A stretch of DNA of 20,834 nt from a virus. Taxonomy: Duplodnaviria; Heunggongvirae; Uroviricota; Caudoviricetes. The notes beneath the pieces were generated by a model, which had not been told where the DNA came from, did not search any database, and was given only the letters and a program-made list of their open reading frames with translations. The stretch lies in the IMG/VR virus record IMGVR_UViG_3300030310_000016. The stretch is one strand, 5' to 3'. Positions within the stretch are counted from its first letter, which is position 1; every line of letters starts with the position of its first letter. Shown here one piece after another: positions 4,605-5,455 of the stretch. The translations under genes and the position numbers were made by a program.

Positions 4605-5012
4605 AGTAGCCACATGATAAGTTGCTGGAATCATATTTCCCACTCAAGTCATTAACATTTGATAAGATATATCTAAAAGGACGCCTTTACATTATTTATG
4701 TGTATATAATTTATTTATATACACAGTAAAGGTATCCTGGGAAAATATTTATCGTTAAAAAATACATCATAAATAATTAAGCTGAAATTTCAGAACACAA
4801 CTAATACACACAATAAGGTTCAGTAACAATAATCTATGTGGACTACATCGAGATTTTTTGATTAAACTTTAATAACTTATTCCTAACACACAGAATGCAT
4901 AAACTAAAAGTAAAACAAATAGTTATACGAAAAACAACCATATTTATTATATCTTCTCCTCTAATCAACATATCAATTATGTGTTTCATAACAGCTTGAC
5001 ATAACCCTCAAA

Positions 5013-5035
5013 AACACGCATTTATAATGCATGTT
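5013..5035 (+). promoter_or_regulatory. NsrR-box-like 11-1-11 palindrome overlapping a TATAAT -10 hexamer upstream of the YeaR-like gene
   Basis: AACACGCATTT-A-TAATGCATGTT resembles the recalled NsrR consensus (AAGATGCATTT-n-AAATGCATCTT). TATAAT is at 5023..5028 and TTGACA at 4996..5001, but the 21-bp spacer is non-optimal. Confidence 0.35.
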
Positions 5036-5050
5036 TTTGAGGAGGTGGTT

Positions 5051-5389
5051 ATGACACACAAGAGAATTCCTAAAGATTGGGTAATCAAACGCTCAACTCC
5101 GTTCTTCACAAAAGAGAACGTACCTTCAGCGTTATTAACACATCATAATACAGCAGCAGGTGTTTTTGGGCAGTTGTGCGTAATGGAAGGCACTGTAACA
5201 TATTATGGTTTTACTGATGAGAATGCTACTGAACCGGAGATAAAAGTAGTCATTAATGCTGGCGCTTTTGCAACAAGCCCACCACAATACTGGCACCGTG
5301 TTGAACTAAGCGATGATGCTCAGTTTAATATTAACTTTTGGGTCGCTCCAGACTTCTCGGGCGAAAAAGTCTATAGCACCAAAAAATAG
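5051..5389 (+). CDS. YeaR-like DUF1971 protein (TehB N-terminal-like), 112 aa
   Basis: ATG at 5051 is preceded by GAGGAGGTGG. The translation (KRIPKDWVIKRSTPFFTKENVPSALLTHHNTAAGVFGQLCVMEGTVTYYGFTDENATEPE...INFWVAP) parallels the recalled E. coli YeaR sequence. The ORF-track start at 5027 lacks a ribosome-binding site. Confidence 0.75.
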   Translation: MTHKRIPKDWVIKRSTPFFTKENVPSALLTHHNTAAGVFGQLCVMEGTVTYYGFTDENATEPEIKVVINAGAFATSPPQYWHRVELSDDAQFNINFWVAPDFSGEKVYSTKK

Positions 5390-5418
5390 ATGATCATATT
5401 AAAAATGCTTTAACAGTC

Positions 5419-5455
5419 AGACCCGGCAGGGCTATCCCCGACGGGTCTCATTTTT
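5419..5455 (+). terminator. putative rho-independent terminator of the YeaR-like gene
   Basis: Stem AGACCCG / CGGGTCT (5419..5425 and 5442..5448) followed by CATTTTTG. Confidence 0.45.

What the first reader, a model, noticed from the sequence alone, without database searches (positions are those of the whole stretch)
4996..5455. YeaR/DUF1971-like cargo gene carrying what looks like an NsrR operator
Seen in sequence: a 112-aa YeaR-like ORF with a strong ribosome-binding site and its own terminator sits in the accessory island. Overlapping its putative -10 hexamer is AACACGCATTT-A-TAATGCATGTT, which has the 11-1-11 inverted-repeat architecture and GCATTT/AATGCAT cores of the NsrR box as I recall it. 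Established knowledge: chromosomal yeaR is part of the nitric-oxide-responsive NsrR regulon. Inference: this moron may be wired into the host nitrosative-stress response, although the function of YeaR proteins is unresolved.
Basis: partly seen in the sequence, partly recalled or inferred. Interest (0 to 1): 0.5.

Follow-up and report, generated by a model that had tools for sequence, protein, structure and literature searches.

The report
NO-sensing switch on prophage cargo gene
A small stress-protein gene carried by a dormant virus in E. coli still has the DNA switch that would let the host's nitric-oxide sensor NsrR control it; the same arrangement is already known for the Salmonella gene STM1808, and here it sits on a mobile, phage-borne copy.

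Summary
ORF 5051-5389 (+) encodes a 112-aa DUF1971 protein with SD GAGGAGG and a hairpin plus T-run terminator. It lies antisense to its neighbours in a Rac-like E. coli prophage.

AACACGCATTTATAATGCATGTT (5013-5035) is a real 11-1-11 NsrR-type box:
- It scores 19.7 bits on a matrix built from 19 validated E. coli NsrR sites, similar to the hmp operator.
- The next best site in the window scores 11.7.
- P is about 1e-7 to 3e-6 per position.

Comparative evidence is stronger. The protein is not a YeaR orthologue (41% identity). It belongs with Salmonella STM1808 (79%), which papers cite as an NsrR-regulon gene. In 51 of 52 enterobacterial species, orthologues carry a 20-31-bit NsrR box centred 27-39 bp before the ATG. 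In 20 Vibrio, Shewanella and related genomes the gene follows norV-norW.

Caveats:
- The window's operator allele is derived and weakened. Sister prophage alleles score 26 bits.
- TTGACA and TATAAT are 21 bp apart, so the -10 actually used is uncertain.

Verdict: an NsrR-repressed, NO-inducible moron. It is a new, mobile member of a known kind. Binding and induction are untested.

The parts
4996..5001 (+). -35 hexamer TTGACA
   Evidence: Read from the sequence. It aligns with the TTTACA -35 of the Kluyvera/Leclercia-type chromosomal orthologues. It is invariant in all E. coli prophage alleles examined.
5013..5035 (.). NsrR-type 11-1-11 operator AACACGCATTT-A-TAATGCATGTT, centre 5024
   Evidence: Scores 19.7 bits on a matrix of 19 validated sites, and is the top hit in the window by 8 bits. 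Scores 21.2 bits on a matrix of 6 classical operators. Orthologous boxes of 20-31 bits occur in 51 of 52 enterobacterial species. Nucleotide homology to the chromosomal loci begins at about 5008-5012.
5019..5028 (+). Two candidate -10 hexamers inside the box: CATTTA (5019-5024, 17 bp from the -35, at the position of the ancestral TATTTT) and TATAAT (5023-5028, 21 bp from the -35)
   Evidence: Sequence and alignment A2. Which one is used is not determined. Both lie within the operator.
4997..5056 (.). Extended imperfect palindrome around the box. It runs from the -35 to the start codon, and the right arm contains SD GAGG and the ATG
   Evidence: Arms at 5006-5022 / 5026-5042 and 4997-5006 / 5047-5056. 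If transcribed as RNA it folds at -23.3 kcal/mol, z = -5.9. Its role is unknown.
5039..5045 (+). Shine-Dalgarno GAGGAGG
   Evidence: Sequence. It lies 5 nt upstream of the ATG at 5051.
5051..5389 (+). 112-aa DUF1971 protein of the STM1808 / 3DL3 subfamily
   Evidence: Translation. Pfam PF09313, E=2.3e-26. PDB 3DL3, E=3.5e-59, and YeaR 3BB6, E=1.6e-24. 73-82% identical to homologues from Enterobacteriaceae to Vibrionaceae, with H31, H32, C43, H82 and E85 invariant.
5419..5455 (+). Probable intrinsic terminator: stem 5419-5448, then T-run 5451-5455. An A-tract at 5400-5404 makes it look bidirectional
   Evidence: RNA fold -19.4 kcal/mol, z = -2.1. Not called by the consensus scan. Absent from L002/L004-type prophages, where similarity ends at the stop codon.

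Best explanation
This is a self-contained moron (promoter, operator, gene and terminator, about 4996-5455) in the nin/Q-proximal accessory region of a Rac-like E. coli prophage.

It encodes an STM1808-type DUF1971 protein. This is a small, probably metal-binding protein that is linked to nitric-oxide stress responses across gamma-proteobacteria.

The gene was captured together with its native operator from a Kluyvera/Leclercia-like enterobacterial chromosome.

Proposed mechanism:
- In the lysogen, the host's [4Fe-4S] repressor NsrR binds the 11-1-11 box.
- The box covers the -10 region and the likely transcription start, so NsrR blocks RNA polymerase.
- NO nitrosylates the cluster, NsrR leaves, and the gene is transcribed independently of the phage's own circuits.
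- E. coli has no chromosomal orthologue, so the prophage adds a member to the host NsrR regulon.

Shown here: the sequence elements, the matrix score, orthology, conservation of the box, and the gene contexts.
Inferred: NsrR binding, NO induction, the promoter actually used, and any benefit to the lysogen.
For: Matrix score:
- The matrix was built from 19 ChIP-positive or independently validated E. coli sites (Table 4 of PMC5320621). The box scores 19.7 bits.
- By leave-one-out it ranks 8th of 19. For comparison, hmp scores 18.1 leave-one-out and 20.8 in-sample.
- ln P is about -16, beyond that paper's -14.28 threshold, although the matrix is not identical to theirs.
- Outside the DUF1971 promoters, only 4 of 456,597 positions in 79 other loci reach this score. 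All four are NsrR-like boxes in Neptunomonas and Parendozoicomonas.

Conservation:
- 51 of 52 enterobacterial orthologues have a 20-31-bit box centred 27-39 bp before the ATG. The 52nd has the same box with a 1-bp deletion.
- The best score in the rest of each locus has a median of 9.5 bits.
- The S. enterica copy sits after nhaB-dsbB and has a 26.5-bit box 39 bp before its ATG. STM1808 is cited as NsrR-regulated and virulence-linked (PMC7527575, PMC7082413).
- Rodionov 2005 predicted a 'tehB homolog' in the NsrR regulon of all enterobacteria.

Gene context:
- 20 non-enteric loci place the gene directly after norV-norW.
- In Neptunomonas it lies beside an NsrR-like Rrf2 gene.

Moron features:
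- It is on the opposite strand to the flanking DUF1367/YbcO/DUF1133 genes and the IS3.
- It is present in 466 of 5426 complete E. coli genomes, always at 90% identity or more, so there is no native orthologue.
- It is present in 3 deposited phage genomes.
Against: - No binding or expression data exist for this locus.
- The window's allele is derived. Positions 3-5 of the left half are CAC, against GGT or GTT in outgroups and in sister prophages. The C at position 5 costs 4.3 bits.
- Sister alleles score 26.0 and 25.3 bits; others have decayed to 17.9 and 15.2. The operator is therefore polymorphic and may be under relaxed selection in prophages.
- The 71-bp promoter segment varies more than the coding sequence: 82-90% against 96-98% identity.
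- The perfect -35 and perfect -10 are 21 bp apart, and the hexamer at 17 bp (CATTTA) is poor. The promoter is not a textbook one.
- The matrix was trained on sites that were themselves picked with a matrix in the source paper.
- The primary paper on STM1808 (Karlinsey 2012) could not be read here.
Confidence: 0.78

Rival explanations
1. The box is an inherited but decaying relic. In this allele NsrR control is largely lost and the gene is expressed constitutively or leakily from the new TATAAT. The prophage copy is then a constitutively expressed cargo gene, not an NO-responsive one.
For: The window allele is derived and 6.3 bits weaker than sister allele B. Six of the 23 box positions are polymorphic among E. 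coli prophages, with alleles down to 15.2 bits. The prophage lineage created a consensus TATAAT at the box centre that chromosomal orthologues lack.
Against: A score of 19.7 bits is still within the range of operators that work in vivo (hmp 20.8, c4214 18.6, grxD 17.3 in-sample). The right half-site is intact at 11.2 bits, and single half-sites are reported to suffice (Partridge 2009, as cited in PMC5320621). Any NsrR bound here would still cover both candidate -10 hexamers.
Confidence: 0.15
2. The main function of the 60-bp palindrome is structural or serves another factor. It could be an RNA hairpin that hides the SD and ATG in read-through transcripts, a DNA cruciform that modulates the promoter, or a site for an unknown dimeric protein. 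The resemblance to NsrR boxes would then be secondary.
For: Palindromy extends well beyond the 23 bp that NsrR needs. As RNA the region folds at -23.3 kcal/mol, z = -5.9, and pairs CCUC with GAGG and CAUAACC with GGUUAUG. Salmonella, Citrobacter, Yokenella and Raoultella planticola orthologues also have flank pairing, with different and partly compensatory sequences. Observed flank pairing is 3.84 of 8 against a null of 2.90 +/- 0.19, and 0 of 2000 permutations reach it.
Against: The conserved part across all lineages is the 23-bp NsrR consensus itself. The flanks are not palindromic in the Kluyvera/Leclercia group that is closest to the prophage copy (z about -0.3). A transcript started from either candidate -10 would begin inside the right arm and could not form the hairpin. 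No + strand gene lies upstream to supply read-through. The permutation test ignores relatedness among loci.
Confidence: 0.05
3. The match is a chance palindrome in A+T-rich intergenic DNA.
For: The upstream 813 bp is 30% GC. 13 of 3000 dinucleotide shuffles of that stretch give a site at least this good somewhere.
Against: The site is at the position homologous to strong boxes in 51 other species and aligns with them. Region-wide shuffle P is about 0.004, before requiring that position. The next best site in the window is 8 bits lower.
Confidence: 0.01

Closest known systems
Salmonella enterica STM1808 (NsrR-regulated DUF1971 gene downstream of nhaB-dsbB)
   Same: The protein subfamily is the same: 79% identity, 113 against 112 aa. 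It is a single-gene unit with an 11-1-11 NsrR box just upstream of the SD (26.5 bits, 39 bp before the ATG). It is cited as an NsrR-regulon member with a virulence role.
   Different: STM1808 is a fixed chromosomal gene. The window copy is on a Rac-like prophage present in about 9% of E. coli genomes. The box-to-ATG spacing is 27 bp, which is closer to the Kluyvera type (28-30 bp). The operator is weaker and polymorphic. That the Salmonella locus found here is STM1808 is inferred from its nhaB-dsbB context and my recollection of LT2 numbering.
E. coli yeaR-yoaG operon
   Same: It encodes a DUF1971 protein. An NsrR box (AAATGGTATTTAAAATGCAAATT, 24.2 bits) lies in the promoter. It is strongly nitrate/NO-induced: 160-fold in CFT073.
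   Different: Only 41% identical. yeaR is 119 aa and is followed by yoaG, whereas here a terminator follows. No NarL heptamer or FNR-like site lies in the window's promoter. The promoters cannot be aligned outside the box.
norV-norW-linked DUF1971 genes of Vibrionaceae and Shewanella (crystal structure 3DL3, deposited as 'tellurite resistance protein B')
   Same: 73-80% identical protein. The context is NO detoxification.
   Different: In those genomes the gene is the last gene of a flavorubredoxin cluster and has no NsrR box in the 200 bp upstream. Control is presumably through the norV promoter, which is an inference.
Classical NsrR operators (ytfE, hmp, hcp, ygbA)
   Same: 11-1-11 inverted repeat with GCATTT/AAATGC cores overlapping core promoter elements. 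Repression is relieved by NO (established knowledge; PMC5320621).
   Different: The window site departs from the consensus at positions 3 and 5 of the left half and position 1 of the right half, and it sits inside a much longer palindrome.
Phage morons (lysogen-expressed cargo with their own promoter and terminator)
   Same: It is an autonomous transcription unit, antisense to the neighbouring phage genes, variably present among related prophages, and lower in GC than its flanks.
   Different: It is wired to a specific host stress repressor through an operator inherited with the gene.

Membership tests
NsrR operator (E. coli-type 11-1-11 box) | [quoted passage not shown] | tested here: met
   19.7 bits, 8th of 19 by leave-one-out, P about 1e-7. 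21.2 bits on a matrix of 6 classical operators.
NsrR operator (E. coli-type 11-1-11 box) | Position overlapping core promoter elements or the transcription start | tested here: inconclusive
   The box contains both candidate -10 hexamers and lies 11 bp after a perfect -35. No transcription start is mapped, and the 21-bp TTGACA-TATAAT spacing is abnormal.
NsrR operator (E. coli-type 11-1-11 box) | Conservation at orthologous promoters | tested here: met
   51 of 52 enterobacterial species have a 20-31-bit box at 27-39 bp from the ATG. The boxes align.
NsrR operator (E. coli-type 11-1-11 box) | Physical binding by NsrR (EMSA, footprint or ChIP) | not testable with these tools
   No data. The CFT073 ChIP-seq tables list no DUF1971 prophage target, and I did not establish whether CFT073 carries the gene.
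NsrR regulon member | Derepression in an nsrR mutant, or by NO | not testable with these tools
   Reported for the Salmonella orthologue STM1808 only through secondary citations. The primary paper is not held.
DUF1971 (Pfam PF09313) | Significant full-length match to the domain model | tested here: met
   E=2.3e-26, 92 bits against a cutoff of 23.1, covering model positions 1-80 of 80.
YeaR orthologue | High identity to E. coli YeaR and the yeaR-yoaG operon structure | tested here: not met
   41% identity. No yoaG follows; a terminator does. Much closer to 3DL3 (E=3.5e-59) than to YeaR 3BB6 (E=1.6e-24).
STM1808-type subfamily | About 111-114 aa, more than 70% identity across Enterobacteriaceae and Vibrionaceae, with the invariant H31-H32, C43, H82 and E85 pattern | tested here: met
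   73-82% identity to 19 diverse homologues, with all invariant columns shared. 79% to the Salmonella protein next to dsbB.
TehB SAM-dependent methyltransferase | Methyltransferase domain; NCBIfam NF008992 above its cutoff | tested here: not met
   49 bits against a cutoff of 303. Only the N-terminal 106 positions of the 289-position model match. The RefSeq label 'TehB family protein' refers to that domain alone.
Phage moron | Own promoter and terminator, orientation independent of phage operons, dispensable, and variably present among related phages | tested here: met
   Elements. Opposite strand to its neighbours. Related Rac-like prophages carry different genes next to it, such as QueH, Hok, KilA-N or an IS3. 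K-12 Rac lacking it is my recollection. The promoter elements are read from sequence and are not shown to be functional.

The most novel reading that the evidence does not exclude
The operator region may do more than bind NsrR.

In several lineages the box sits in a 39-60-bp palindrome whose flanks differ in sequence but stay complementary. These lineages are this prophage allele, S. enterica, the Citrobacter freundii complex, Yokenella and Raoultella planticola. Citrobacter shows apparent compensatory changes.

E. coli prophages also carry at least five operator alleles, spanning 15 to 26 bits.

The most novel reading the evidence does not exclude has two parts:
(a) The long palindrome is a selected structure, either a cruciform or an SD/ATG-sequestering hairpin. 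It would ensure that only transcripts started at the NsrR-controlled promoter are translated.
(b) The prophage alleles are adaptive settings of the NO threshold in different E. coli lineages. They may have arisen by quasipalindrome template-switch mutation: the window's clustered GGT-to-CAC change makes the two arms more complementary.
Probability: 0.12. Interest if true: 0.5.

Novelty: new member of a known kind. Interest (0 to 1): 0.35.

Why it matters
It is a clear case of a prophage adding a gene to a host stress regulon by importing the gene together with its operator. No new regulator or rewiring is needed. E. coli has no native STM1808 orthologue, so about 9% of sequenced strains get one only through this Rac-like phage. 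If it works as STM1808 is reported to in Salmonella, lysogens could gain NO tolerance in the inflamed gut, in macrophages or in the urinary tract. The natural series of operator alleles (15-26 bits) offers ready material for relating NsrR box strength to repression. The norVW and NsrR contexts found here also narrow the unknown function of this DUF1971 subfamily to NO stress.

Tried and rejected
- Literature: no paper held here links NsrR with DUF1971 or with Rac prophage cargo. 'DUF1971' alone gives two unrelated papers. Karlinsey 2012 is not held under its PMC id or its PubMed id, so STM1808 facts rest on secondary citations and on memory.\n- The consensus promoter scan found no promoter at the site because of the 21-bp spacer, and the terminator scan did not call the hairpin. 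Both elements were assessed by alignment and folding instead.\n- I looked for yeaR-like co-regulation. No NarL heptamer (TACYYMT) and no FNR-like site lies in 4850-5050.\n- A Fur box like the one in Kluyvera-type orthologues is not present above background: 12 of 19 matches, which many random 150-bp windows also reach.\n- The ATG at 5027 (120-aa form, as annotated in phage ON470614) is rejected, because homologues start at the 5051 position and the SD precedes it.\n- TehB methyltransferase identity is rejected.\n- Chance is rejected.\n- Rfam found nothing in 4300-5700.\n- Small ORFs around the gene have no family hits.\n- I did not run a structure prediction, because a 78%-identical crystal structure exists.

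Full report
**What is there**

The window is a Rac-like lambdoid prophage of E. coli or Shigella.
- A 1-kb stretch around the finding is 100% identical to many E. coli chromosomes.
- The window encodes integrase, RecT, RecE, SieB, cI/Cro-like repressors, YdaT, a DnaC-like loader, DUF1627, DUF977, and then DUF1367, YbcO and a DUF1133/Q-like protein.
- The ORF in question runs from ATG 5051 to stop 5389 on the + strand and encodes 112 aa. It is antisense to the genes on both sides.
- It lies in a low-GC stretch of 24-41% GC.
- GAGGAGG sits 5 nt before the ATG.
- A stem (5419-5448) with a T-run follows the stop codon. It folds at -19.4 kcal/mol, z = -2.1.
- The ATG at 5027 is not the start, because every homologue begins M-[ST]-H at the 5051 position.

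**The repeat**

AACACGCATTT-A-TAATGCATGTT occupies 5013-5035 and contains TATAAT (5023-5028). It is part of a longer palindrome. That palindrome is 17-3-17 at 5006-5042, with outer arms at 4997-5006 and 5047-5056. TTGACA (4996-5001) is a perfect -35 but lies 21 bp from TATAAT, so the consensus scan did not call a promoter.

I built a symmetrised matrix from the 23-bp sites in Table 4 of PMC5320621. I kept only sites that were ChIP-seq positive or independently validated, which gave 19 sites.
- The window site scores 19.7 bits. By leave-one-out that is 8th of 19, between c5065 and hmp.
- The next best site in the whole window scores 11.7 bits.
- Exact P per position is 1.1e-7 with a uniform background, 1.4e-6 at 65% A+T and 2.7e-6 at 70% A+T.
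- 13 of 3000 dinucleotide shuffles of the 813-bp A+T-rich upstream region reach this score anywhere.
- A matrix built from only six classical operators gives 21.2 bits, against 11.9 for the runner-up.

The stated refutation criterion is therefore not met.

**What the gene is**

- Pfam gives DUF1971, E=2.3e-26.
- It is only 41% identical to E. coli YeaR.
- It matches TehB only over the N-terminal domain, at 49 bits against a cutoff of 303.
- Its close relatives, at 73-82% identity, form a very conserved family of 111-114 aa. The family spans Salmonella, Citrobacter, Klebsiella, Raoultella, Kluyvera, Leclercia, Vibrio, Aliivibrio, Photobacterium, Shewanella and Oceanospirillales.
- A member from this family has a crystal structure, 3DL3 (E=3.5e-59).
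- The Salmonella copy sits directly after nhaB-dsbB. By my recollection of LT2 gene order, that position is STM1808.
- Papers held here describe STM1808 as an NsrR-regulon gene with a role in virulence, citing Karlinsey 2012.
- Rodionov 2005 had already predicted a 'tehB homolog' in the NsrR regulon of all enterobacteria.

**Phylogenetic footprint**

I collected 80 loci, one per species, and scanned the 200 bp upstream of each orthologue.
- Of the 52 enterobacterial loci, 51 have a box of 20-31 bits centred 27-39 bp before the ATG. One of these 52 is a Shigella locus (L006) carrying the window's own prophage allele, so it is not independent. The 52nd locus has the same box with a 1-bp deletion.
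- The best score elsewhere in each ~6-kb locus has a median of 9.5 bits.
- Outside these promoters, only four of 456,597 positions reach 19.7 bits. All four are NsrR-like boxes in Neptunomonas and Parendozoicomonas.
- In those genera the boxes lie ahead of a two-gene operon that ends in the DUF1971 gene. In Neptunomonas the gene is also next to an NsrR-like Rrf2 gene.
- Twenty Vibrionaceae, Shewanella, Agarivorans and Oceanospirillales loci lack a box but place the gene immediately after norV-norW, the flavorubredoxin NO reductase genes.
- Two Photobacterium loci have a box directly upstream.

In total, 77 of 80 loci tie this subfamily to an NO-response unit.

**Origin and promoter architecture**

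- Nucleotide homology between the window and Kluyvera, Leclercia or Pseudescherichia chromosomes is 72-75%. It begins at about 5008-5020, at the box, and ends at the stop codon.
- In the alignment, the window's TTGACA is homologous to their TTTACA.
- Their -10 is TATTTT, 17 bp downstream and inside the left half of the box.
- At that position the prophage lineage has CATTTA. It has also turned the box centre TTTTAAATG into TTTATAATG, which creates TATAAT 4 bp further on.
- Whichever hexamer is used, it lies inside the operator. Repression by occlusion is the simplest mechanism, but this is an inference.
- No NarL or FNR motif accompanies the box, unlike at yeaR.

**Distribution and alleles**

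- The gene is in 466 of 5426 complete E. coli genomes, always at 90% identity or more. E. coli therefore has no native orthologue.
- It is also in three deposited phage genomes.
- The 71-bp promoter segment is identical in 142 genomes, 95-99% identical in 146, 90-95% in 134 and 80-90% in 36.
- The operator alleles sampled are listed below.

| Operator allele | Score (bits) | Where seen |
|---|---|---|
| AACACGCATTTATAATGCATGTT | 19.7 | this window |
| AAGGTGCATTTATAATGCATGTT | 26.0 | L002 (phage), L004 |
| AAGGTGCATTTATAATACATGTT | 25.3 | L003, L090 |
| AAGGAGCATTCATAATGCATGTT | 17.9 | L005, L089 |
| AACACGCATTTATAACGCATGTT | 15.2 | L088 |

- Outgroups have AAG[GTA]TG, so the window's AACACG is derived. 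Its C at position 5 costs 4.3 bits.
- This is the main reason for caution. The operator is inherited and still in the working range, but in this prophage it is one of the weaker versions.

**Comparison with known systems, and novelty**

The mechanism and the gene-regulator pairing are known from Salmonella STM1808 and, more loosely, from E. coli yeaR. What is new:
- the location, as a phage moron that supplies E. coli with a regulon member it otherwise lacks;
- the polymorphic operator;
- the extended palindrome.

I found no paper describing the prophage copy.

I rate it a new member of a known kind, of moderate interest.

**Unexplained**

- Palindromy beyond the 23-bp box recurs with different flank sequences:

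| Lineage | Flank sequences |
|---|---|
| S. enterica | GTGATTAA...TTAATCAC |
| Citrobacter | GGCATCTAT...ATAGATGCC, with variants GGCATTTAT/ATAAATGCC and GGCACCTAT/ATAGGTGCC |
| Yokenella | flanks also pair (TCATCTAT...ATAGATGA) |
| Raoultella planticola | flanks also pair (ACAGATCAA...TTTATCTGT) |
| this prophage allele | CCTCAAA...TTTGAGG |

- It does not recur in the Kluyvera group.
- Flank pairing exceeds a permutation null: 3.84 against 2.90 +/- 0.19 of 8 positions. That test ignores relatedness among loci.
- Whether this reflects selection (a cruciform, an RNA hairpin, or additional half-sites) or templated quasipalindrome mutation is open.

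Noticed in passing
window 7321-8736 (-): This 471-aa ORF in a low-GC patch has no Pfam or PHROG family. It matches the PADLOC anti-phage defence model PD-T7-3 at E=3.5e-168. The prophage's accessory region therefore carries a defence gene close to the DUF1971 moron.
   Followed up: partly
window 5727-6898 (-): An IS3-family element: orfA (HTH_Tnp_1) at 6590-6898 and orfB (rve) at 5727-6593. It starts about 300 bp after the DUF1971 terminator. The window diverges from otherwise identical prophages such as L001 at about 5697. 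In L005 a different IS3 sits just upstream of the same gene's -35.
   Followed up: partly
L007-L028 (Kluyvera, Leclercia, Buttiauxella, Pseudescherichia, Silvania, Pantoea sp. IMH), about 75 bp before the ATG: These chromosomal orthologues have a Fur-box-like GATAATGAGATTCATTATC (13-17 of 19 matches to the consensus) just upstream of the -35. This suggests Fur and NsrR co-control there. The Salmonella/Citrobacter/Klebsiella group and the window have nothing above background.
   Followed up: partly
L091, L029-L054, L063, L076 and window 4997-5056: The NsrR box is embedded in 39-60-bp near-perfect palindromes. The flanks differ between lineages but stay complementary, including apparent compensatory changes among Citrobacter species. 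Unexplained.
   Followed up: partly
L034, L039, L043, L047, L051, L053, L057, L061, L062, L065, L067-L069, L072, L074, L075, L078, L082, L084, L085: In 20 Vibrionaceae, Shewanella, Agarivorans and Oceanospirillales genomes the orthologue lies directly downstream of norV-norW. In Aliivibrio an Fpr-like reductase lies in between. This is a strong context clue to the function of this DUF1971 subfamily.
   Followed up: yes
L073 2315-3348 (Parendozoicomonas haliclonae): Two tandem NsrR-like boxes (22.3 and 17.5 bits) precede a SAM-methyltransferase gene, which is followed immediately by the DUF1971 gene. This is a split version of the TehB domain architecture, apparently under an NsrR-type box.
   Followed up: partly
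window 19100-19278 (-) and 1876-2062 (-): Rfam matches above gathering score: the RalA antitoxin sRNA (225 bits), next to the Rac recombination module, and the sRNA STnc100 (87 bits).
   Followed up: no
window 791-1186 (-) and 1337-1765 (-): Two prophage ORFs carry TolA C-terminal domains (E=1e-14 and 2e-23). Related prophages annotate them as TolA-like.
   Followed up: no
window 5013-5017 and 5037-5041, compared with L002/L004: The window allele differs from the stronger allele B by clustered changes: GGT to CAC in the left arm and ATG to TGA after the right arm. These make the two arms more complementary, raising flank pairing from 4 of 8 to 7 of 8. This is the pattern expected from quasipalindrome template-switch mutation. 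Not tested.
   Followed up: no
window 5604-5693 (-): A small hydrophobic ORF (MLVLKCALAIAAVMAIYCLAVVLMERLSD) with no family hit. In L004-type prophages a Hok/Gef toxin gene occupies the position just downstream of the DUF1971 gene.
   Followed up: partly
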